64,000 bases of DNA from Planctomycetota bacterium (lineage in GTDB: Bacteria > Planctomycetota > MHYJ01 > WSZJ01): NCBI GenBank assembly GCA_038060895.1, contig JBBTCT010000022.1, positions 224,001-288,000 of the forward strand. The letters run 5' to 3'. Shown piece by piece: positions 2-51,561 of the stretch; positions within the stretch are counted from its first letter, which is position 1; each line of letters begins with the position of its first letter. The notes beneath the pieces were generated by a model, which was not told where the DNA came from, did no database searches, and saw only the letters and a program-made list of their open reading frames with translations. A program made the position numbers and the translations under genes.

Positions 2-3000
2 GAGGACGTGGCGCTCGAGATCACGATTGCCGCGACGAAGGGGCTGGCGGCGGCGCACGACAAGGGGATCATTCACCGGGACGTGAAGCCGGACAACATC
101 CTGATCCCGGAGGGAGACTTCGAGGGCGCGAAATTGGCGGATCTCGGGCTCGCGAAGCCCGAAGGCTCCATGCAGACGTTCGGGACGCTGTCGAACGTCG
201 CGATGGGAACGCCGGGGTTCATGGCGCCGGAGCAGGCGGAGAACGCGAAGTCGGCGGGCCCCGCCGCGGACGTCTTCGCGATGGGCGCCACCTTTTACGC
301 CCTCCTGATGGGCGGCCCGCCGTTCCGCGGATCGAGCCTCGTCGCCGTGATCCGAGCCGCCATGGAAGAAGACCATCCGCCGCTGCCGGACACCGTGAGC
401 GGCGGCATCCGCTGGGTGATCGACCGCTGCCTCTGCAAGAACCCGAAGGACCGCTTCCGCGACGGCTCGGAACTGCTCGCGGCGCTTCTGCGCGTGCAGA
501 AGAACCCGAATGCCACGATGGCGAAGCAGCGGAGCGTGGTGGAGCACATTCCGGAAAAGAAGCGGAGCAAGGCGCCGCTCTGGGCGGGGGCGACGTTGCT
601 GGCCGCGGGGCTGCTGGTTGCGGGGTTCTGGTACCTGAGGCACCGCAGGGGCAACGAAGCGCCGCCGGAGCCGCCGCGGGACATGGCGGCAGAGAAGCTC
701 GACGAGCTTTTCGCGCAGGCCGCGAAGCAGGAAACGGCGGGGAGGCACGAGGACGCGCTCTCGACGCTGACGCGGGTTGCGGCGTACGCGCCCGACGACC
801 GGCGGCTGAGGGAGATGCGGGAGAGGATCGGCGAGAAGATCGTCGCGGCAAAGGCCGCTTCCGAAAAGTCCGCCTCTTACCGCTCGTACCTGCCGGCGGC
901 CGATGCGACGCGGCTGGCGGCCGACGCGGCGGACACGGTCGAGCTGTGGGACAAGATGCTGGAGGCCTGCGCGAAGCTCGAGCCCTCGGCACAGACGGAT
1001 ACGGAAAAGCAGATGGTGGGGCAGATGAAGTCGGAAGCGACGCAGCGGCGTCACTGGGCGGCGGCGCGGGTGGCGGAAAAGGGAGGGGACCTGGCGGGGG
1101 CGCTTGAACTGGCGCGGAAGGCCGCGGCGTCGGGGGGCCCGAAGAACGATTTTCTCGACGCGTACATCGCTGCGATCGAACTGAAGGCGAAGGAGACGGA
1201 AGGGAAGCTCCGCAAGAAGAAGGAATTCGACGCGGCGGTGGCGGCGGCGGAGCGCGAGCCGGACGTCATGAAGGCGCGCGCGCTCTGGACGACCGCGGTC
1301 GGGCTCGCGGAGGATCCCGCGGACCTCAGCCGCGCCCAACTGAAACTGCGGGAGGTCACCGACCGGCTGCAGGGCGCCGAGCGCGACACGCTCTTCGACG
1401 CCGCGATGCGCGAAGGCAACGAGGCGCTCTCCTCCGGAAACCTTGACGCGGCCGCGAAGCGATTCCAGGACGCGCTGGATCTGAAGCCGGACGAACCGAA
1501 GGCGCTGGAGATGCAGCGTGCGGTGGCGGACCGGAGGGTGGCGAAGGAGTGGGAAGCGGTGCTGAAGGAGATCGAAGCGGCGAAAAAGGGCGGGGACCCG
1601 GCCGTATTGAAGCTGGCCTACCGGAAGGCACTGGCGTTGAAGGACGACCGGGACATCGCCCGGGCGCTGACGGAGCTCGAGAGCGAAGACACGGCCATCA
1701 AGCCGAAGGTCTCCGGCGACCGGATCGAGGCCGTCCTCGACGCCGGGAGCGGGGTGAAGATGGAGTTCGTAAAGGTCAAGCCGGGAACGTTCACGCTTGG
1801 GGCCTCCTCGGACGCCAGAAAGGTCATCCTGACGCGGGAATTCTTCATACAGTCCACCGAAGTGACGCAGGACCAGTGGGCCGCGATCATGGGGACCAAC
1901 CCTTCGTACTTCCGCGGGGGCAACCTCCCCGTCGAGCAGATCAGCTGGTACGACGCGATCGAATTCATCGAACGGCTCAATCTCCGCCTCGCCGGCTGGT
2001 CGGCAGCTCTTCCGTCAGTCGCGCAGTGGGAGTGCGCCTGCCGGGCGGGGTCAAAGTGGGACTGGGGCGCGGCCGAATCGCAGGAAGCGCTTGCCGAATT
2101 CGCGTGGCTCCCGAAGAACTCGGGCGAGAAGACGCATCCGGTGGGCGCGCTGAAGCCGAACGCCTGGGGGCTGTTCGACATGCAGGGGAACATCTGGGAA
2201 TTCTGCTGGGACTGGATGGCGCCCGTTCCGTCGACGCCGGAGCTGACCGATCCGGTCGGGCCTGCGTCGGGGACTCTCAAACACATCCGCGGCGGCTGCT
2301 ACAACGACGGAAACGCCGCCACCCCCGCGACGCGCAGCGAGGCCGATCCCCGCAAGCGCGTCGGGAGCGTCGGGTTCCGCATGATCCTGGTGCCTGGGAA
2401 GGAAGGCAATCCGCACCTGAAGCGGATGTCGGTGATGCTCGACGAATCGAAGAAGCTGCGGATGGACTTCGTCCACATCCGTTCCGGGAAGTTCGTGGCC
2501 GGCGCGCCCGGGAGCGTGAACCCCGACGCGGCCGCGCACTCCGTGACGATCACGGAGGACTACTGGATCTCCACGACGGAGACGACGCAGGCGCAGTGGG
2601 AGTCGATCGTCGGCCGGAAGACGTTTTCACGCCGGGCCGCGGACCTGCCCGCCGACACGCTGAGCTGGAACGATCTCCAGGATTTCACGAGGCGGCTCGC
2701 GTCGAAGACCGGCAAGCTCAAACCCGCTCTTCCGACGGAAGCCGAGTGGGAGTACGCCTGCCGGGGAGGCGCATCGAGCGTCTACCAGAGCGGCGACACG
2801 CTCGACCGCATTGGCGAGTTCGCGTGGCATGCGGCAAACGCGAAGGAAGCGCAGACGGTCGGGAAACTCCGGCCGAATTCCTGGGGCCTCTACGACATGG
2901 CCGGCAACGTCCGCGAGTGGTGCTCCGACTGGTACGCGCCGTACAGCGGCGACGCGACGGACCCGCACGGGCCGGACAAAGGGACCGAGCGGGTGATCCG

Positions 3001-3109
3001 CGGCGGCGCCTGGGACGAGCCGGCGTCGGCGACCGCTTCCGGCGCGCGCGCCCGGCTGGCGCCGGACAAGCGGATCCCGAACGTCGGGTTTCGCGTCGTG
3101 CTGCGGTAG
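2..3109 (+). CDS. Ser/Thr protein kinase (5'-partial) with TM helix, TPR-like region and two C-terminal FGE-sulfatase (SUMF1) domains
   Basis: HRDVKPDNIL, DLGLAK, GTPGFMAPEQ and DVFAMG kinase motifs; hydrophobic segment; two FGE modules (LPTEAEWEYACR, PNAWGLFDMQGNIWE, RGG..GFR). Frame is open to the window start. Confidence 0.92.
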   Translation, partial: EDVALEITIAATKGLAAAHDKGIIHRDVKPDNILIPEGDFEGAKLADLGLAKPEGSMQTFGTLSNVAMGTPGFMAPEQAENAKSAGPAADVFAMGATFYALLMGGPPFRGSSLVAVIRAAMEEDHPPLPDTVSGGIRWVIDRCLCKNPKDRFRDGSELLAALLRVQKNPNATMAKQRSVVEHIPEKKRSKAPLWAGATLLAAGLLVAGFWYLRHRRGNEAPPEPPRDMAAEKLDELFAQAAKQETAGRHEDALSTLTRVAAYAPDDRRLREMRERIGEKIVAAKAASEKSASYRSYLPAADATRLAADAADTVELWDKMLEACAKLEPSAQTDTEKQMVGQMKSEATQRRHWAAARVAEKGGDLAGALELARKAAASGGPKNDFLDAYIAAIELKAKETEGKLRKKKEFDAAVAAAEREPDVMKARALWTTAVGLAEDPADLSRAQLKLREVTDRLQGAERDTLFDAAMREGNEALSSGNLDAAAKRFQDALDLKPDEPKALEMQRAVADRRVAKEWEAVLKEIEAAKKGGDPAVLKLAYRKALALKDDRDIARALTELESEDTAIKPKVSGDRIEAVLDAGSGVKMEFVKVKPGTFTLGASSDARKVILTREFFIQSTEVTQDQWAAIMGTNPSYFRGGNLPVEQISWYDAIEFIERLNLRLAGWSAALPSVAQWECACRAGSKWDWGAAESQEALAEFAWLPKNSGEKTHPVGALKPNAWGLFDMQGNIWEFCWDWMAPVPSTPELTDPVGPASGTLKHIRGGCYNDGNAATPATRSEADPRKRVGSVGFRMILVPGKEGNPHLKRMSVMLDESKKLRMDFVHIRSGKFVAGAPGSVNPDAAAHSVTITEDYWISTTETTQAQWESIVGRKTFSRRAADLPADTLSWNDLQDFTRRLASKTGKLKPALPTEAEWEYACRGGASSVYQSGDTLDRIGEFAWHAANAKEAQTVGKLRPNSWGLYDMAGNVREWCSDWYAPYSGDATDPHGPDKGTERVIRGGAWDEPASATASGARARLAPDKRIPNVGFRVVLR

Positions 3110-3146
3110 GCTTGCATGACCGCCGCCCGCGCCGCTGAACTGCCGG

Positions 3147-3395
3147 GTGCAGCTCGAAACTTCTGCAGTGCGTCAGTTCGAGGCGCTCGAAGCGGCGGCG
3201 AAGGCGCGCATCAGCGACGCCATCGACGATCTTGCGGGGAATCCCAGGCCCGCGGGCGCGAAGAAGCTCGCGGGTACGACCGGGTACCGTGTCCGGACGG
3301 GGGATTGGCGCATTCTCTACACCGTGGACGATCCCGTCCGGCTGGTCCGCGTCTATCGCATCGGGAACCGACGGGACGCGCACAGAAACCTTTAA
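3147..3395 (+). CDS. RelE/ParE family toxin, no adjacent antitoxin seen
   Basis: NPRPAGAKKLAG..YRVRTGDWRILYTVDD..VYRIGNRRD is typical RelE/StbE. Confidence 0.85.
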   Translation: MQLETSAVRQFEALEAAAKARISDAIDDLAGNPRPAGAKKLAGTTGYRVRTGDWRILYTVDDPVRLVRVYRIGNRRDAHRNL

Positions 3396-48117: not shown

Positions 48118-48585
48118 TTACTCTTTACCGCCGCAGCACTTCTTGTACTTCTTGCCGCTCCCGCAAGGGCACGGATCGTTGCGGCCGAGAGGCGCGCCCG
48201 CATTCTTGAAAGGCGTTCCCTCGGGTTTCGCCTGCTTTTCGAACGCCGCGGTGAGCGCGCCGGCGTAGGTGGCGAGCTGGCGGCCGCCGTAGAGGCGACC
48301 CTCGGATTCCAGGAATTCGAGGAAGGCGCCGACGAGGTGGGGGACGGAGGCGCGCGCTTCGGGTGGAAGGGCAAGCCGGGCGAGGCCGGTGAGGAGGCCG
48401 TTTCTGACGGAGAGTTCGTCGAGATCGCCGGGAGAAACGGAGGCGCACGCCGTTTCCATGAAGGCCATGAGGAGCGGGGCGGCGTCCAGATCGGGGCGTG
48501 CGCGGAAGGGGCGGAAGGGAGTGGACTCGAGGAAGTCAGCGATCCAGGCTTCGACGCTGTCGCGTTCGAACGTTTCCATGGGCAA
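48118..48585 (-). CDS. SEC-C motif-containing protein
   Basis: [18 protein letters not shown] at the C-terminus. Confidence 0.9.
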
Positions 48586-48873
48586 AGCATCGTACGCGCG
48601 GGGCTGCTGTCGCGCGAGTGGCAGGGGGAATAGTCGCCGGAACGCTCAGCCGAGATCGTATAAAATAAGTACTCTGCGCTGCTTAATGATATGCGTGGCT
48701 GGAGTCTGACGCACAGCGAATTTCAACGGGATTATGCACTTGACAAACTTAAAATCCATGAACGAAACTCGTACAGGCATCATGGTTTGCGTCGATTATG
48801 GCCCCGCGATTAAACGAATAAGAAAATCGCCAGAGTCCCGTTTCAGGACGCGATTTTGGCCCGCGACGAGGAT

Positions 48874-49002
48874 TCAGGACTTACGGCGAGGTTTCCCGGC
48901 CTTCTTAGCCCGCTTCAGGGGGGGTGTAGCGAGGGCCTTCCGGATCATGGCGTCGAAGTCCACGCGGGTCACTTCTCGGTGGCTCTCTGGCTTGGGTTTC
49001 AT
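48874..49002 (-). CDS. 42-aa basic peptide (IS cargo)
   Basis: AAGGAG RBS; MKPKPESHREVTRVDFDAMIRKALATPPLKRAKKAGKPRRKS. Confidence 0.6.
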   Translation of the reverse strand: MKPKPESHREVTRVDFDAMIRKALATPPLKRAKKAGKPRRKS

Positions 49003-49049
49003 CTATCTATCTCCTTGGGGGTTATCAGGCTGATTCCCCTAGAAAGTAT

Positions 49050-49078
49050 TTGACAGCGTCTGCGGCGCAGCTTAGGAT
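49050..49078 (+). promoter_or_regulatory. Sigma70 promoter for the cargo gene and tRNAs
   Basis: TTGACA-17 bp-TAGGAT; ATG 7 nt downstream (leaderless). Confidence 0.7.
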
Positions 49079-49085
49079 TTCCCAG

Positions 49086-49475
49086 ATGCGAAGGAACAAC
49101 AAGATCGTGAGCCTTGGAGAGGAAATCGCGGCGAAGCGCCGGGAGCTGGCGGCGCTTGAGGCCGAACTTGACATCGAAGTCAGGCGGTATAGCGGTGGTC
49201 ATGCGAAGGCTCCACAAGCGGTGGTGACACCGCCTAGACCTGCGGACCCTGAAGAGGTCCTTCTGAGTGATGCCATCATCGCTGGCAAGGTGGTGCCTCT
49301 CTTGGACAGGGAGCCGGATCGGGTGTTCACCGTGGATGATATCACAAGATTGACCGGAGTGCCGCGCCACCTTCTGGTGATGTCTATCGGGCGCATGGTG
49401 CGCTGGCACAAGGTCCACAAAGTGGAAGCTGGCAAGTACAAGGCATCCACGGTTAAGAAAGCGATGGAGGGATAA
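49086..49475 (+). CDS. Coiled-coil plus winged-helix-like small protein (IS cargo)
   Basis: EIAAKRRELAALEAEL coiled coil; FTVDDITRLTGV..SIGRMVR..KVHKVEAGKY wHTH-like. Confidence 0.7.
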   Translation: MRRNNKIVSLGEEIAAKRRELAALEAELDIEVRRYSGGHAKAPQAVVTPPRPADPEEVLLSDAIIAGKVVPLLDREPDRVFTVDDITRLTGVPRHLLVMSIGRMVRWHKVHKVEAGKYKASTVKKAMEG

Positions 49476-49504
49476 AGAAAAACCCTCGGTCGTTGGCCGA
49501 GGGT
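49473..49504 (-). terminator. Rho-independent terminator (minus strand)
   Basis: ACCCTCGG/CCGAGGGT stem followed on the minus strand by a TTTTCTTT tract. Confidence 0.65.
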
Positions 49505-49515
49505 GTACGTCGGTT

Positions 49516-49607
49516 GGAGAGGTGTCCGAGTGGCTTATGGTGCTGGTTTCCAAAACCAGTGAACGGTGGTGACACACCGTCCGAGGGTTCGACTCCCTCC
49601 CTCTCCG
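49516..49607 (+). tRNA. Class II tRNA with Ser-type body and CCA (Trp) anticodon
   Basis: Acceptor GGAGAGG/CCTCTCC, G73; anticodon arm CTGGT-TTCCAAA-ACCAG; long variable arm ACGGTG/CACCGT; T arm GAGGG-TTCGACT-CCCTC; no encoded CCA tail. Confidence 0.88.
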
Positions 49608-49625
49608 TTTTGCTGTTCTGAGGCT

Positions 49626-49720
49626 GGCCGGGTGGCGGAACTGGTTTACGCGCCCGACTTGGAATCGGGTGGTTGTCTCTTGACGGGGGCACCATGCGGG
49701 TTCGAATCCCGTCCCGGTCA
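49626..49720 (+). tRNA. Class II tRNA with Leu-type body and TGG (Pro) anticodon
   Basis: Acceptor GGCCGGG/CCCGGTC, A73; D arm GCG-GAACTGGTTTA-CGC; anticodon arm CCCGA-CTTGGAA-TCGGG; long variable arm; T arm GCGGG-TTCGAAT-CCCGT. Confidence 0.88.
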
Positions 49721-49780
49721 GTCTCATTTTTGAAAGATCGAAGCGCCTTTGCGAAGTGCTTGAGGCTGGCGCGTGTCAAA

Positions 49781-49809
49781 AGAATACAACAAGACTGGGT
49801 GCGTGTCAA
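49781..49809 (-). promoter_or_regulatory. Candidate sigma70 promoter antisense to the tRNA pair
   Basis: Minus strand TTGACA(49809-49804)-17 bp-TATTCT(49786-49781); GCGTGTCAA repeated at 49771 and 49801. Confidence 0.6.
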
Positions 49810-49841
49810 CTTGCGAAATTGACGCACCGCGCCAACTCTGA

Positions 49842-50795
49842 CTAGCGCTTCACATCCCGCTTTGGCGCTTCCAGAGTGAGGCGTTTTCCTTCGGTGCGCT
49901 GGATCGCGTCGAGCATCTTCGCCCCGTCTGACTTCTTCCGGTTGTTGAACGTCCAGAGGTAGGAATCGAGGTACTTCGGAAGGTAGTCATGCCCAACGCC
50001 GTGGAAGATGCCCACGATGGAAGTCTTGAAGTTGGCGAAGAGGCCCTCAACGCCGTTCGTCGTGACGTCCCCACGGGCGTACTCTTCGATGGAGTGGTTG
50101 ACGGTTTCATGCTTCACCATCATCCGCCCTGGCGTGACGTACAGCTTGGATTCGTCTGAGTGAAGCACCGTCCGCTTGGGATCAACGTTCTTCATTACGA
50201 AGCGGCGGATGTCCCGCGCGTTGGCCTTGGGCGCTGGCTTGACGACGGCACGCGCGGACCCTCCACGCTGAACCAGCGCCAGCACGGTTGACTTCTTCAC
50301 GGCCTTGCCACGGCGCGATCCGCGCCCCTTGTGGCCGAAGTAGGTTTCGTCCGCTTCGATGATCCCGGCGAGTGGTGACTTGTCGGAGTTCTGGAGAGCG
50401 TGGCGCACCCGATGGCAGAGAAACCACGCGGTGCGATAACTGCCGAGTTCAAGGTGCCGCTGGATTGCCAGCGCCGAGATTCCTGTCTTGCTGGACGAAA
50501 TGAGGTAGAAGGCCAGCAGCCACTTGTTGAGCGGGATGTGGCTGTCCTCGAAGATCGTGCCAACGGTGCAAGTGAACTGCTTCCGGCACGCCACGCAGAA
50601 CAGCAGCCCCTTGCGAATCTTCTTCTCCGCGTCTGGCTTGAGCCGGGCGACCTTCTCGCGTTCGGTGCAGCCACAGTGCGGGCAAACGGGGCCAGAGGGC
50701 CAGCGCACCGCTTCGATGTAGTTACGCGCGGCGTCCTCGTCTGGGAAGAGAGAGAAGATGTTCGTCAGGCTCACGGCATCGGGCGTCGGGATCAT
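49842..50795 (-). CDS. IS1595-family (ISXO2-like) transposase
   Basis: RWP...CPHCG..CVACRKQFT..GTIF Zn ribbon; SYRTAW HTH; EADETY, HSDE, VNHS..EY, TNGVEG catalytic motifs. Confidence 0.95.
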   Translation of the reverse strand: MIPTPDAVSLTNIFSLFPDEDAARNYIEAVRWPSGPVCPHCGCTEREKVARLKPDAEKKIRKGLLFCVACRKQFTCTVGTIFEDSHIPLNKWLLAFYLISSSKTGISALAIQRHLELGSYRTAWFLCHRVRHALQNSDKSPLAGIIEADETYFGHKGRGSRRGKAVKKSTVLALVQRGGSARAVVKPAPKANARDIRRFVMKNVDPKRTVLHSDESKLYVTPGRMMVKHETVNHSIEEYARGDVTTNGVEGLFANFKTSIVGIFHGVGHDYLPKYLDSYLWTFNNRKKSDGAKMLDAIQRTEGKRLTLEAPKRDVKR

Positions 50796-50820
50796 GGGCG
50801 TCTCCTTTGAGTACGCCTAA

Positions 50821-50849
50821 AAGATACTAGATCATGCTTGTTTTGTCAA
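50821..50849 (-). promoter_or_regulatory. Transposase promoter with -35 inside the IR
   Basis: Minus strand TTGACA-17 bp-TATCTT, then AAAGGAG RBS. Confidence 0.7.
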
Positions 50850-50923
50850 GTGCATAATCCCGATTTCAAGCTTAACATTATGATATTAAATAAGTTATGA
50901 CACATTGTCTGCAACGGTTCATT

Positions 50924-51021: not shown

Positions 51022-51561
51022 ATGAGCAACACATTGGACACAACCATCCGGGTTCAGTGGTCCCCGGCCCCCGGCTCCCCCGAAGCCCTTTCTTCCAACC
51101 GCCGTCTCTCGAAGCTCGCCGCTGCGGCGCTTCACTGCGCCTGGCTGTCCTACATCGCGGCGCTCTTCCTTCCTGCCGCTGTCTACACACCCGGCTACCT
51201 GTGCCTGCTCGGGTCGGCCGTTTCGGTGGTGGTTCTCTGCCTGGGCTCGGTCTCCGCGCTCGTTCCCGCGCTTCTGTTCATCCCGAACCTGGCGATGCTC
51301 CTGAGCCCGATGGTCCTGGCGCGGTCCGTGCGTCGCGGCCGCATGATGCAGGTCCTGAGCGGGCTCAGCGTGGCCGGCGCCATCCTGACCGTTTCGTGCG
51401 GCGCGCTGATCTGCTCCCAGGGGCTCGACACCGGCGGCTGCGGCGGCACGGGCGGACGGAACTCCGATCCGGAGATCGGGTTCTTCATGTGGGTCGTGTC
51501 GGCGGTCTTCCTCGCGGCCGGCACGGTCCTCGCCCGCCGGTCGGAAGGCGCCGCGAAGTAA
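51022..51561 (+). CDS. Membrane protein
   Basis: GGAG RBS; four to five hydrophobic segments. Confidence 0.7.
   Translation: MSNTLDTTIRVQWSPAPGSPEALSSNRRLSKLAAAALHCAWLSYIAALFLPAAVYTPGYLCLLGSAVSVVVLCLGSVSALVPALLFIPNLAMLLSPMVLARSVRRGRMMQVLSGLSVAGAILTVSCGALICSQGLDTGGCGGTGGRNSDPEIGFFMWVVSAVFLAAGTVLARRSEGAAK

What the first reader, a model, noticed from the sequence alone, without database searches (positions are those of the whole stretch)
48727..50862. IS1595 element carrying a pair of identity-mismatched tRNA genes: candidate mobile mistranslation or RNA toxin-antitoxin module
Seen: a complete IS1595 element (perfect 21-bp IRs, ATTTCAA duplication, intact transposase). Its cargo is a promoter, a 129-aa coiled-coil/wHTH gene, two long-arm tRNA genes in tandem, a convergent promoter/terminator pair and a 42-aa peptide. 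Known: IS1595 members can carry passenger genes, and bacterial SerRS and LeuRS largely ignore the anticodon, so Ser and Leu bodies are the ones that can carry a foreign anticodon. Inference: the element may encode Trp-to-Ser and Pro-to-Leu mistranslating tRNAs under regulation. These could act as an addiction, anti-phage or proteome-diversifying system. I do not know of this arrangement being described.
Basis: partly seen in the sequence, partly recalled or inferred. Interest (0 to 1): 0.95.

Follow-up and report, generated by a model that had tools for sequence, protein, structure and literature searches.

The report
Jumping gene carrying mismatched tRNAs
A small jumping gene carries two tRNA genes built like serine and leucine tRNAs but set to read tryptophan and proline codons, and relatives elsewhere carry the same odd leucine-type tRNA, so it may spread deliberate mistranslation.

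Summary
Window 48727-50862 is a complete IS1595-family element: perfect 21-bp inverted repeats, a 7-bp ATTTCAA duplication and an intact transposase. It occurs once in the genome, and another study's DNA run holds a contig that looks like the empty site.

The cargo is two canonical 7/5 class-II tRNA genes. One scores as tRNA-Ser but has anticodon CCA. The other scores as tRNA-Leu but has anticodon UGG.

The new result is that the Leu-type tRNA is not a one-off. Of 98 related transposase loci or elements, 14 carry 15 Leu-type tRNA genes. All 15 have proline anticodons (12 UGG, 3 AGG) and none has a leucine anticodon. Across 15 sequences 99% of stem cells pair, and the E. coli LeuRS determinants are kept. 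A tRNA-first scan of viral contigs found 21 more, 7 of them beside an IS1595 transposase. Sister elements fill the same slot with ParE or PIN toxins, restriction-modification methylases or an NYN nuclease.

Best reading (about 0.5): a restrained cassette of tRNAs charged by their body and decoding by their anticodon, giving Pro-to-Leu and Trp-to-Ser errors. Charging and expression are untested. The host ProRS is the type described as keeping anticodon recognition, so dual or cognate charging remains possible. The Ser/CCA tRNA was found only here.

The parts
48720..48726 (.). Left copy of the 7-bp target-site duplication (ATTTCAA)
   Evidence: Read. The empty-site-like joint in run X3 shares 7 letters on both sides (table 5).
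48727..48747 (+). Left terminal inverted repeat, 21 bp
   Evidence: I1: 100% complementary to 50842-50862. The same repeat consensus recurs in related elements.
48874..49002 (-). 42-aa basic peptide gene at the end opposite the transposase, on the same strand as it
   Evidence: ORF. Look-alike terminal peptides sit at the same place in C9, L031, L033, L039, L040, L054, L080, L098, L103 and L004, L043, L047, L118. No Pfam match.
49050..49078 (+). Promoter-like site (TTGACA-17-TAGGAT) for the cargo operon
   Evidence: The second hexamer ends 7 nt before the ATG at 49086, so the mRNA may be leaderless (inference). L085 has the same two hexamers upstream of its tRNA pair.
49086..49475 (+). 129-aa protein: long N-terminal helix, linker, probable winged-helix C-terminal half; putative regulator
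   Evidence: AlphaFold2 single-sequence model, pLDDT 67.1, elements H4-36, H55-75, E80-82, H83-90, H94-107, E117-119. Foldseek best E = 0.065, not significant, but the top hits are winged-helix domains. MarR_2 is below cut-off. No homologue found. Proteins of similar layout lie just upstream of the tRNA in L003, L047 and L118.
49482..49504 (-). Terminator-like hairpin plus T-run on the minus strand, just past the antisense of tRNA1
   Evidence: 8 pairs, 6 of them G-C, tail TTTTCTTTAT. L003 has an equivalent site at 2090-2076 (-).
49516..49607 (+). tRNA1: tRNA-Ser-type body (class II, G73) with anticodon CCA (Trp)
   Evidence: Ser model gives 78.6 bits against 38.8 for the host Trp tRNA. The four nearest host tRNAs are all Ser. 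Its anticodon arm equals that of a relative's tRNA-Ser(CGA) except for the middle anticodon base.
49626..49720 (+). tRNA2: tRNA-Leu-type body (class II, A73) with anticodon UGG (Pro); member of a recurrent IS- and phage-borne family
49781..49809 (-). Promoter-like site (TTGACA-17-TATTCT) pointing into the antisense of both tRNAs
   Evidence: With the terminator-like site at 49504-49482 it would give an antisense RNA of about 300 nt (inference). L003 has a similar pair of sites around its tRNA.
49842..50795 (-). IS1595-family DDE transposase, 317 aa, intact
   Evidence: It aligns full length with four relatives, and D149, D214 and E250 are among the invariant columns.
50821..50849 (-). Promoter-like site for the transposase, partly inside the right repeat
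   Evidence: TTGACA-17-TATCTT.
50842..50862 (-). Right terminal inverted repeat, 21 bp
   Evidence: I1.
50863..50869 (.). Right copy of the 7-bp target-site duplication
   Evidence: table 5.

Best explanation
Window 48727-50862 is a complete IS1595-family transporter element that was probably mobile recently. Its cargo is a small operon: a promoter-like site, a 129-aa probable winged-helix regulator, then two canonical 7/5 class-II tRNA genes. tRNA2 belongs to a conserved family of tRNA-Leu-type molecules whose anticodon is always a proline anticodon. This family rides in one subgroup of IS1595 elements and also occurs on viral contigs. tRNA1 is a tRNA-Ser(CGA)-type molecule with one changed anticodon base, giving CCA. 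The most likely mechanism is that LeuRS and SerRS, which do not read the anticodon, charge the two tRNAs by their bodies. The ribosome then uses them by their anticodons, putting Leu at CCN codons and Ser at UGG codons. Expression would be held down by the upstream regulator and by an opposing antisense transcription unit. The cassette would then be a conditionally toxic or stress-inducing cargo, filling the slot where sister elements carry toxins, restriction-modification methylases or nucleases. Shown here: the element's anatomy, the body type of each tRNA, the recurrence, covariation and invariant proline anticodon of the Leu-type family, and the cargo of sister elements. Inferred: expression, who charges the tRNAs, mistranslation, regulation and the benefit.
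For: Body and anticodon disagree. Under a Ser model built from 7 tRNA-Ser genes of 4 related genomes, tRNA1 scores 78.6 bits; the host Ser tRNAs score 98.7, 94.3 and 81.1, Tyr 63.9, and the host Trp tRNA 38.8. The Leu-type family model scores the host's five class-II Leu tRNAs at 67.0-77.6 bits and its Pro tRNAs at 42.6 or less. The nearest host tRNAs are four Ser for tRNA1 and three Leu for tRNA2.

The cargo recurs. In transposase-anchored searches 98 loci or elements were examined: the window, the C9 copy, 16 from genomes and 80 from metagenomes. Fourteen carry 15 Leu-type tRNA genes: 12 UGG, 3 AGG and 0 leucine anticodons. The only other tRNA calls in these loci were tRNA1, one ordinary Met tRNA, one ARAGORN-only call (L050) and one weak hit (L054).

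The family looks selected. In 15 sequences 99.0% of stem cells pair, against 68.2 +/- 2.0 in shuffles (0 of 500 reach it) and 36-47% when partners are slid. Sixteen of 20 pairs change on both sides. In 33 aligned members A14, A15 and G19 are invariant, and U48, G18, G35, G36 and A73 are each kept in at least 90% (A73 in 31 of 33). These are the E. coli LeuRS determinants (A73, A15-U48, G18G19) listed in the passages of PMC9976931 read, which also say the anticodon and long arm are not needed.

An independent tRNA-first scan of viral contigs found 21 loci, 7 of them with an IS1595 transposase or a fragment of one beside the tRNA.

tRNA-bearing elements cluster in three places on the transposase tree.

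Sister elements hold ParE toxins plus N6 methylases (L033, L039), an N6 methylase (L010), an NYN nuclease (L043), and annotated PIN/VapC toxins in Roseomonas marmotae p1318-1 and Methylobacterium oryzae pMOC1.

Control elements are plausible. A promoter-like site precedes the regulator gene and the tRNAs. An antisense promoter-like site and a terminator-like site bracket the tRNAs, and L003 has a similar arrangement.

The element looks mobile: perfect repeats and duplication, plus an empty-site-like joint in another study's DNA run.

There is precedent. [quoted passage not shown]
Against: No charging or expression data exist. The one RNA run holds contigs only inside the transposase gene, and the tool warns that this does not show transcription.

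The host ProRS is the family-I (archaeal/eukaryal-like) enzyme: TIGR00408 scores 558 bits against a cut-off of 437, and TIGR00409 scores only 74.9 against 306.7. The review passages read say anticodon recognition was kept through ProRS evolution while acceptor recognition changed. tRNA2 (G35, G36, A73) may therefore also, or mainly, be prolylated.

tRNA1 has CCA and G73, the major bacterial TrpRS determinants, so it may be charged with Trp.

The window's tRNA2 is the only one of 33 family members with T instead of A at the D-loop position I assign to A20a, which is an E. coli LeuRS determinant.

tRNA1 is a single example, one base away from a normal tRNA-Ser(CGA) arm, so it could be a recent neutral or harmful mutation.

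The regulator is an orphan and its fold match is not significant. Promoters and terminators are consensus matches only, and terminator-like sites are not enriched. Only 2 of the 4 elements scanned show the antisense arrangement.

The transposase genes do not avoid CCA or CCG codons, so the element would harm its own protein as well.
Confidence: 0.5

Rival explanations
1. The tRNAs are charged mainly through their anticodons, by ProRS and TrpRS, and work as correct proline and tryptophan tRNAs in an unusual body. One possible use is as spare tRNAs that escape a nuclease or toxin recognising the normal tRNA-Pro or tRNA-Trp body. Mistranslation would then be minor or absent.
For: The host ProRS is the family-I type. 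The review passages say anticodon recognition is kept across ProRS types. Discriminator bases fit both identities: A73 for Leu and Pro, G73 for Ser and Trp. The window's tRNA2 lacks the A I assign to A20a. The family also sits in phage tRNA clusters (L122, L125), where ordinary supplementary tRNAs are common.
Against: The Leu-specific A15-U48 pair and A73 are kept across 33 members, which makes little sense if LeuRS were irrelevant. The host's own Pro tRNAs have C1:G72 while the family has G1:C72. A real tRNA-Pro would be easier to capture than a remodelled tRNA-Leu. The cargo slot otherwise holds toxins and nucleases.
Confidence: 0.2
2. The tRNA-shaped RNAs do not act in translation but serve the element. 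The tRNA gene usually converges on the transposase gene, so its transcription, its processing sites or its antisense partner could tune transposase levels. Alternatively the RNA could bind the small proteins of the element.
For: In 10 of 14 elements the tRNA lies downstream of the transposase gene and converges on it, often within about 100 nt of the stop codon (coordinates). Antisense promoter-like and terminator-like sites bracket the tRNAs in the window and in L003. [quoted passage not shown]
Against: A purely cis or structural role does not explain why the anticodon is always NGG, with both UGG and AGG. Nor does it explain why the D-loop, T-loop, the LeuRS determinants and A73 are all kept. 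Four of 14 elements have the tRNA on the same strand as the transposase gene.
Confidence: 0.15
3. The two genes are decaying hitchhikers: ordinary Ser and Leu tRNA genes captured by the element and then hit by anticodon mutations, with no function.
For: Each anticodon is one base from a cognate one: CGA to CCA, as the tRNA1 arm shows, and UAG to UGG. tRNA1 has no known relatives with CCA.
Against: For tRNA2 this is effectively excluded: 15 of 15 transposase-linked genes have proline anticodons, 99% of stem cells pair, and 16 of 20 pairs show compensatory changes. Both window genes keep intact cloverleaves well above Rfam's gathering score.
Confidence: 0.05

Closest known systems
allo-tRNAs (Mukai et al. 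2017, PMC5389517; outline and sections 12 part 1 and 16 read)
   Same: Natural bacterial tRNAs whose identity elements (Ser or Ala) disagree with their anticodon. Some insert Ser at Leu codons and arrest E. coli growth. They were found near toxin-antitoxin genes and a transposon-related ORF, and in soil polycistrons of irregular tRNAs.
   Different: allo-tRNAs are defined by an 8/4 or 9/3 acceptor/T branch; both window tRNAs are canonical 7/5. allo-tRNA anticodons cover 35 codons, whereas this family has only proline anticodons. Its body is Leu-type, not Ser-type. Here the carrier is a defined IS1595 element with repeats and a target duplication.
tRNA-ProX with ProRSx of Streptomyces and Kitasatospora (passages of PMC11415595 read; PMC10404621 seen only as a search listing)
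   Same: A family of bacterial hybrid-identity tRNAs thought to cause deliberate mistranslation; some carry the rare A34, as do 3 members here (AGG).
   Different: The direction is opposite: tRNA-ProX is a Pro body with Ala, Asn or Thr anticodons. It is co-encoded with a dedicated synthetase, and no synthetase gene lies in the elements here. No link to an insertion sequence is mentioned in the passages I read.
IS1595-family elements with passenger genes (family description recalled, Siguier et al. 2009, not read; papers pairing 'IS1595 family' with 'passenger genes' seen only as listings)
   Same: DDE_Tnp_IS1595 plus zinc-ribbon transposase, short terminal repeats, and extra genes between the repeats.
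   Different: I found no report of tRNA genes as passengers. This subgroup also has a conserved small basic peptide gene at the far end.
Engineered or human anticodon variants of tRNA-Ser and tRNA-Leu (tRNA-Ser(UGG) in yeast; tRNA-Leu variants, PMC11028032; abstracts or listings only; passage in PMC9976931)
   Same: Same logic: SerRS and LeuRS ignore the anticodon, so anticodon changes give Ser or Leu at the wrong codons, and this is toxic in a dose-dependent way.
   Different: Those are laboratory constructs or sporadic human alleles, not a conserved mobile family in bacteria.
Nematode nev-tRNAs
   Same: Class-II tRNAs charged with Leu that carry Gly or Ile anticodons. This is the nearest natural case of a Leu body with a foreign anticodon.
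   Different: They are eukaryotic and chromosomal, have different anticodons, and have no known link to mobile elements.

Membership tests
IS1595 family insertion sequence | DDE transposase with the ISXO2-like/IS1595 catalytic domain | tested here: met
   PF12762 at 102.8 bits against a cut-off of 27, covering profile positions 2-153 of 153.
IS1595 family insertion sequence | N-terminal zinc-ribbon domain of IS1595 transposases | tested here: met
   PF12760 at 46 bits against a cut-off of 25.4. The CPHC...C..C columns are invariant in 5 relatives.
IS1595 family insertion sequence | Terminal inverted repeats and a direct target duplication (8 bp is typical by my recollection) | tested here: met
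   21-bp perfect repeats and a 7-bp duplication (7 shared letters at the joint). The length is 7, not the recalled 8. The C9 copy also shows 7 bp.
Canonical (7/5) tRNA | Cloverleaf that reaches Rfam's tRNA gathering score, with a 7-bp acceptor stem and 5-bp T stem | tested here: met
   48.8 and 55.5 bits against 29, full model length 1-71; ARAGORN drawings.
allo-tRNA | 12-bp acceptor branch arranged 8/4 or 9/3 | tested here: not met
   Both tRNAs and the whole Leu-type family fold as 7/5.
tRNA-Leu (bacterial LeuRS substrate, E. coli rules from PMC9976931 passages) | A73 discriminator | tested here: met
   A73 in tRNA2 and in 31 of 33 family members.
tRNA-Leu (bacterial LeuRS substrate, E. coli rules from PMC9976931 passages) | A15-U48 pair and G18G19 | tested here: met
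   A14, A15 and G19 are invariant; G18 and U48 are kept in at least 90% of 33 rows. In the 15-sequence alignment A15, G19 and U48 are invariant.
tRNA-Leu (bacterial LeuRS substrate, E. coli rules from PMC9976931 passages) | A20a in the D loop | tested here: not met
   The window's tRNA2 has T at the position I assign to A20a, while 32 of 33 family rows have A. The numbering is my assignment.
tRNA-Leu (bacterial LeuRS substrate, E. coli rules from PMC9976931 passages) | Leucine anticodon (NAG or NAA), needed for decoding but not for charging | tested here: not met
   UGG in tRNA2. None of the 15 transposase-linked genes has a Leu anticodon.
tRNA-Ser (bacterial SerRS substrate) | Long variable arm, G73 and overall Ser-type body | tested here: met
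   Ser model gives 78.6 bits, ranking fourth after the three host Ser tRNAs. G73 and a variable-arm stem of 6 bp, comparable to that of the host tRNA-Ser(GGA). Acceptor stem and T arm are identical to the host tRNA-Ser(GGA).
tRNA-Pro | G35, G36 and A73, with G72 (C1:G72) and a class-I body | tested here: not met
   G35, G36 and A73 are present, but the pair is G1:C72 and the body is class II. The host Pro tRNAs are C1:G72 and class I and score 42.6 bits or less under the family model.
tRNA-Trp | CCA anticodon and G73, with a class-I body and A1:U72 | tested here: not met
   CCA and G73 are present. The body is class II with G1:C72. The host Trp tRNA is A1:U72 and scores 38.8 bits under the Ser model, against 78.6 for tRNA1.
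Toxin-antitoxin-like module (RNA toxin with antisense RNA or repressor) | A toxic product and a neutralising partner encoded together | not testable with these tools
   Only consensus promoter-like and terminator-like sites and a probable winged-helix protein support it. Toxicity and neutralisation need experiments.

The most novel reading that the evidence does not exclude
A widespread but undescribed class of mobile 'mistranslator' genes exists. These are tRNA-Leu-bodied tRNAs that read proline codons, carried by a subgroup of IS1595 elements and by phages. They are kept under a repressor and antisense control, and used as a proteome-level toxin or stress switch in the way other members of the same IS subgroup use ParE or PIN toxins and restriction-modification systems. 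The window's element has gone one step further and added a Ser-bodied tryptophan decoder, making a two-tRNA cassette.
Probability: 0.4. Interest if true: 0.9.

Novelty: new variant of a known kind. Interest (0 to 1): 0.8.

Why it matters
Natural tRNAs that break the codon-to-amino-acid rule are rare, and their biology is unknown (allo-tRNAs, tRNA-ProX). This finding gives a family defined by three features: a Leu body, a proline anticodon, and a known vehicle with clear ends, an IS1595 subgroup. That makes the open question directly testable, namely whether bacteria or their parasites use deliberate mistranslation, and for what. The cassette is about 0.7 kb, has its own promoter-like site and putative regulator, and has dozens of diverged natural variants to compare. 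If the tRNAs do insert Leu at proline codons, horizontally moving elements could change a cell's decoding rules on arrival. That would matter for ideas on how the genetic code evolves, for conflicts between phages, mobile elements and hosts, and for annotation: tRNA finders label these genes tRNA-Pro and tRNA-Trp.

Tried and rejected
Private recoding of the transposase. I asked whether tRNA-bearing elements put Pro codons where relatives have conserved Leu or other hydrophobic residues, or Trp where relatives have Ser. In an alignment of 87 transposases (11 elements then known to carry a tRNA against 76 others) no such column exists, and the transposase genes use CCA and CCG freely. Rejected.

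Anticodon-anticodon pairing. CCA is the complement of UGG, so I considered tRNA1 as an RNA antidote to tRNA2. Three family members with AGG instead of UGG, and L085 pairing two UGG tRNAs, point to proline decoding rather than the UGG sequence as the selected feature. Not pursued.

Other odd long 'tRNAs' in the genome. ARAGORN's long calls with strange anticodons (C5 Gln, C33 Arg, C46 Pro-AGG, C32 Trp, C22:398993 Ser, C1 SeC) lack a T-loop motif. None appears among the 29 matches of the family model in the whole genome. I treat them as false positives.

Ser-type CCA tRNAs elsewhere. A D-arm plus anticodon-loop pattern gave 98 stretches in viral contigs, but none lies in an ARAGORN tRNA.

Own phylum. 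The Leu/UGG pattern was found in 1 of 401 genomes searched, the window's own. It was not found in those searched, many of which are incomplete.

Cultured plasmids. Four related elements (Mesorhizobium AR07 and AR02, Roseomonas marmotae, Methylobacterium oryzae) have no Leu-type tRNA.

Homologues of the 129-aa protein. None was found beyond itself. The Foldseek matches are not significant.

RNA evidence. Run X7 covers only 49880-50051 and 50351-50503 of the element, and the tool says this does not show transcription. The absence of cover over the tRNAs says nothing. High depth over 49484-49697 in X3 and X4 comes with loose ends and probably reflects other organisms' tRNA genes.

Literature. Searches for allo-tRNA; mistranslating tRNA; IS1595 with tRNA or passenger; insertion sequence with tRNA-Leu or proline codons; chimeric tRNA with isotype; tRNA-Leu with UGG anticodon; transposon-encoded tRNA; IS1595 family with passenger genes; and isotype mismatch gave no description of Leu-type proline-anticodon tRNAs or of tRNA cargo in IS1595 elements. 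The supplements of PMC5389517, which list irregular 7/5 tRNAs in polycistrons, could hold related sequences that I could not see.

The first script for finding repeats timed out and was replaced by a seeded version. The phage collection gave only an unrelated partial match for the L122 tRNA cluster.

Full report
WHAT IS THERE. The finding's coordinates are exact. Two 21-nt arms at 48727-48747 and 50842-50862 are perfectly complementary. They are flanked by direct ATTTCAA copies at 48720-48726 and 50863-50869. Inside, the 317-aa ORF at 49842-50795 (-) matches both Pfam domains of IS1595 transposases well above their cut-offs. It aligns full length with four relatives, and D149, D214 and E250 are among the invariant columns.

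ARAGORN finds two tRNA genes in the whole 64-kb window, at 49515-49608 (anticodon CCA, 94 nt) and 49625-49721 (anticodon UGG, 97 nt). Rfam's tRNA model scores them at 48.8 and 55.5 bits against a gathering score of 29, over the full model. Both are ordinary 7/5 cloverleaves with long variable arms.

Upstream on the same strand lies an ORF that is 129 aa when read from the ATG at 49086. A TTGACA-17-TAGGAT site ending 7 nt before that ATG precedes it. On the other strand a TTGACA-17-TATTCT site at 49809-49781 points into the antisense of both tRNAs, and a hairpin with a T-run at 49504-49482 lies just beyond them. A third promoter-like site sits in the right repeat, facing the transposase gene. 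Three promoter-like sites were found against 0.8 +/- 0.8 in shuffles; terminator-like sites are not enriched. A 42-aa basic ORF at 48874-49002 (-) closes the element.

The element occurs once in the 5.4-Mb, 47-contig assembly.

IS IT MOBILE? A DNA run from a different study (X3) holds contigs across both filled junctions. It also holds one contig that joins 48719 to 50863, skipping 2143 bases with 7 letters shared by both sides. That is exactly the element plus one copy of the duplication, so it looks like an empty site. The shorter side of the joint is only 23 letters, so I count it as a hint of insertion polymorphism, not proof.

WHAT KIND OF tRNAs ARE THEY? tRNAscan-SE was not available, so I ran two stand-in isotype tests.

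For tRNA1 I built a covariance model from 7 tRNA-Ser genes of four related genomes, using none from the host or the element. I then scored the whole host genome with it. The three canonical host Ser tRNAs score 98.7, 94.3 and 81.1 bits. tRNA1 scores 78.6, Tyr 63.9, a Leu tRNA 59.7, and the host tRNA-Trp 38.8. Its acceptor stem, T arm and G73 are identical to the host tRNA-Ser(GGA). Its four nearest host tRNAs are all Ser. Its anticodon arm equals that of a relative's tRNA-Ser(CGA) except for the middle anticodon base. tRNA1 is therefore a Ser-type tRNA one mutation away from a normal one.

For tRNA2 I used a model of the Leu-type family described below. It scores the host's five class-II tRNA-Leu genes at 77.6 to 67.0 bits, but the host Pro tRNAs at 42.6 or less and a Ser tRNA at 43.9. 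tRNA2 itself was part of that model, so its own 78.5 bits is by construction; the informative result is the ranking of the host tRNAs. The three nearest host tRNAs by pairwise alignment are Leu.

The host has its own normal tRNA-Pro (UGG, CGG, GGG; all C1:G72 with A73) and tRNA-Trp (A1:U72 with G73). The element's tRNAs are therefore extra.

THE MAIN NEW RESULT IS RECURRENCE. A second IS1595 element in the same genome, on contig C9, has a transposase 48% identical to the window's. It has the same layout and a 73-nt tRNA with anticodon UGG. The nearest relatives of that tRNA are three short-armed tRNAs with Leu anticodons elsewhere on contig C22.

Searching public genomes with the transposase gave 16 loci of at most 44% identity. 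Two of the top three (L003 and L004, both alphaproteobacterial assemblies) hold a long-armed tRNA with UGG inside their inverted repeats. The third (L002) is cut by the contig end.

A metagenome scan with a 5-sequence transposase alignment found 521 relatives, of which the best 80 were kept. I scanned these with ARAGORN, with Rfam on 40 loci, and finally with a family covariance model on all 98 sources. Leu-type tRNAs turned up in L040, L043, L047, L054, L061, L066, L069, L080, L085 (two in tandem) and L097.

Counting the window, C9, L003 and L004, 14 of 98 loci or elements carry 15 such genes. Many of the 98 are short contigs that cannot show cargo. Among the 27 loci where I could place both repeats, 7 have the tRNA; with the window and C9 that makes 9 of 29.

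Every one of the 15 genes has a proline anticodon: 12 UGG and 3 AGG. None has a leucine anticodon. The only other tRNA calls in these loci were tRNA1, one ordinary-looking Met tRNA (L068), one ARAGORN-only call without a T-loop (L050), and one weak hit (L054, 19.3 bits).

A search in the opposite direction used a D-arm plus anticodon pattern against 2.9 million viral contigs. It found 21 loci. Seven of them have an IS1595 transposase or a fragment of one next to the tRNA, and two sit in a phage tRNA cluster. In 401 genomes of the window's own phylum the pattern occurs only in the window's genome.

IS THE FAMILY UNDER SELECTION? In 15 diverged members, 99.0% of stem cells form standard pairs. 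Shuffles give 68.2 +/- 2.0, and none of 500 reaches the observed value. Sliding the partners gives 36-47%. Sixteen of 20 pairs change on both sides (likewise 16 of 20 in an 11-sequence set).

In the 33-member model alignment A14, A15 and G19 are invariant. G18, U33, G35, G36, U48 and A73 are each kept in at least 90% of rows, and A73 in 31 of 33. The anticodon of the viral members was fixed by the search pattern, so only the 15 transposase-anchored genes are unbiased on that point.

The conserved set matches what the identity review lists for E. coli LeuRS: A73, the A15-U48 pair, G18G19 and A20a. The same passages state that neither the anticodon nor the long arm is needed (PMC9976931, passages). 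The window's tRNA2 is the single member with T at the position I assign to A20a.

On a transposase tree the tRNA-bearing elements cluster in three places. In one of them 8 of 12 members carry the tRNA. This argues for long co-inheritance rather than repeated accidents.

WHAT ELSE DO THESE ELEMENTS CARRY? The subgroup shares repeat termini of the form GGnATTAT..ACTTGACAAA. Elements are 1.8-4.0 kb long, with the transposase gene at one end and a small basic peptide gene at the other, on the same strand as the transposase.

The middle slot varies:
- ParE toxin plus a large N6 DNA methylase in L033 and L039.
- An N6 DNA methylase in L010.
- An NYN nuclease next to the tRNA in L043.
- Indole-3-glycerol-phosphate synthase in L040.
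- DUF3800 in L098 and DUF1828 in L063.
- Annotated PIN/VapC toxins in elements on plasmids of cultured Roseomonas marmotae and Methylobacterium oryzae.

In the window, L003, L047 and L118, a protein with an N-terminal helix, a basic linker and a probable winged-helix end lies directly upstream of the tRNA on the same strand. Only the L047 and L118 proteins are detectably homologous to each other. The window's 129-aa protein has no homologue in the large protein search. Its single-sequence model (pLDDT 67) shows helix-strand-helix-helix-strand after a long helix. Foldseek's best matches are winged-helix domains, but none is significant; the best E-value is 0.065.

L085 has the same TTGACA-17-TAGGAT hexamers upstream of its tRNA pair. 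L003 has an antisense promoter-like site and a minus-strand terminator-like site bracketing its tRNA, as in the window. L047 does not.

HOW IT MOST LIKELY WORKS. SerRS does not use the anticodon, and E. coli LeuRS does not either (PMC9976931 passages). Natural Ser-identity tRNAs with Leu anticodons do insert Ser at Leu codons and arrest E. coli growth (PMC5389517, section 12).

The simplest reading is that tRNA2 is leucylated and reads CCA and CCG, and that tRNA1 is serylated and reads UGG. This would give Pro-to-Leu and Trp-to-Ser errors in competition with the host's single-copy tRNA-Pro(UGG) and tRNA-Trp. Such a cassette would be harmful when fully expressed. That fits a dedicated regulator, an opposing antisense unit, and a cargo slot otherwise used for toxins and nucleases.

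I put this at about 0.5. What the carrier gains (stabilisation, abortive defence, a stress switch) is speculation.

WHAT WEAKENS IT. The host ProRS is the family-I type (the family-II model fails). The review passages say anticodon recognition was kept across ProRS types while acceptor recognition changed. tRNA2 (G35, G36, A73) may therefore be prolylated as well.

tRNA1 has the major bacterial TrpRS determinants, CCA and G73. Both tRNAs could thus have dual identity or even be benign. It is notable that each foreign anticodon is paired with a discriminator base that suits both identities.

There are no data on expression or charging. tRNA1 is unique and one base from normal. The control elements are consensus matches only.

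NOVELTY. Hybrid-identity tRNAs (allo-tRNAs, tRNA-ProX) and IS1595 elements with passenger genes are both known. I found no description of a Leu-bodied, proline-decoding tRNA family or of tRNA cargo in IS1595 elements in nine literature searches. I therefore file it as a new variant of a known kind. It is of high interest because it comes with a defined vehicle and dozens of natural variants, and because it is directly testable.

Noticed in passing
Same contig, outside the window: G000:C22:195134-199316, about 25 kb upstream of window position 1: A dense array of 34 tRNA genes on one strand. It includes short-armed (73-74 nt) tRNAs with Leu anticodons and one ARAGORN call with a 4-base anticodon. 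A further short-armed (75 nt) Leu(GAG) tRNA lies alone at C22:182028. The array resembles the long tRNA arrays described in PMC8421152 (listing only). The C9 element's tRNA(UGG) is most similar to these short 'Leu' tRNAs.
   Followed up: partly
G000:C9:~98595-100664 (L001 ~1096-3164): A second, diverged IS1595 element in the same genome. Its transposase is 48% identical to the window's. It has imperfect repeats and a 7-bp TGAGAAA duplication. It carries a homologous small basic peptide, a 73-nt tRNA with anticodon UGG and an unrelated 128-aa ORF with no Pfam match.
   Followed up: partly
L085:3899-4092 (-): A metagenomic sister element carries two different Leu-type tRNA(UGG) genes in tandem, 7 nt apart. 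A TTGACA-17-TAGGAT site lies upstream, the same hexamers as in the window.
   Followed up: partly
L054:1306-1374 (-): Next to the Leu-type tRNA(UGG) lies a 69-nt tRNA-like sequence (19.3 bits under the family model). It has a G3:U70 pair and A73 in its apparent acceptor stem but no clear anticodon arm.
   Followed up: no
L122:1614-1777 and L125:8477-8640 (viral contigs; L125 is from a 327-kb contig): A Leu-type tRNA(UGG) sits in a phage tRNA cluster (Lys, Tyr, Lys, Tyr, Lys). Beside it is a 74-nt tRNA with anticodon ACU, which has the rare A34.
   Followed up: no
Window 48874-49002 (-) and the equivalent ends of related elements: A conserved small basic peptide of 40-75 aa, with a hydrophobic/acidic motif followed by a Pro- and Lys-rich tail, marks the end opposite the transposase in many elements of this subgroup, with or without tRNA cargo. 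It has no Pfam family, and it is annotated 'hypothetical' in the cultured-plasmid copies.
   Followed up: partly
L040:1881-2807 (+): One tRNA(UGG)-bearing element also carries an indole-3-glycerol-phosphate synthase gene, a tryptophan-pathway enzyme (174 bits). This is odd cargo for an insertion sequence.
   Followed up: no
G000:C4:13533-13625 and G000:C1:472898-472990: ARAGORN calls two tRNA-Sec genes. The C4 one has a normal T loop and looks real. The C1 one lacks a T loop and is probably a false positive in GC-rich sequence.
   Followed up: no
Window 48118-48585 (-) and 51022-51561 (+): The element sits in an AT-rich gap between a 155-aa protein ending in a SEC-C motif (41.1 bits) and a 179-aa hydrophobic protein with no Pfam match. 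No gene appears to be interrupted.
   Followed up: no
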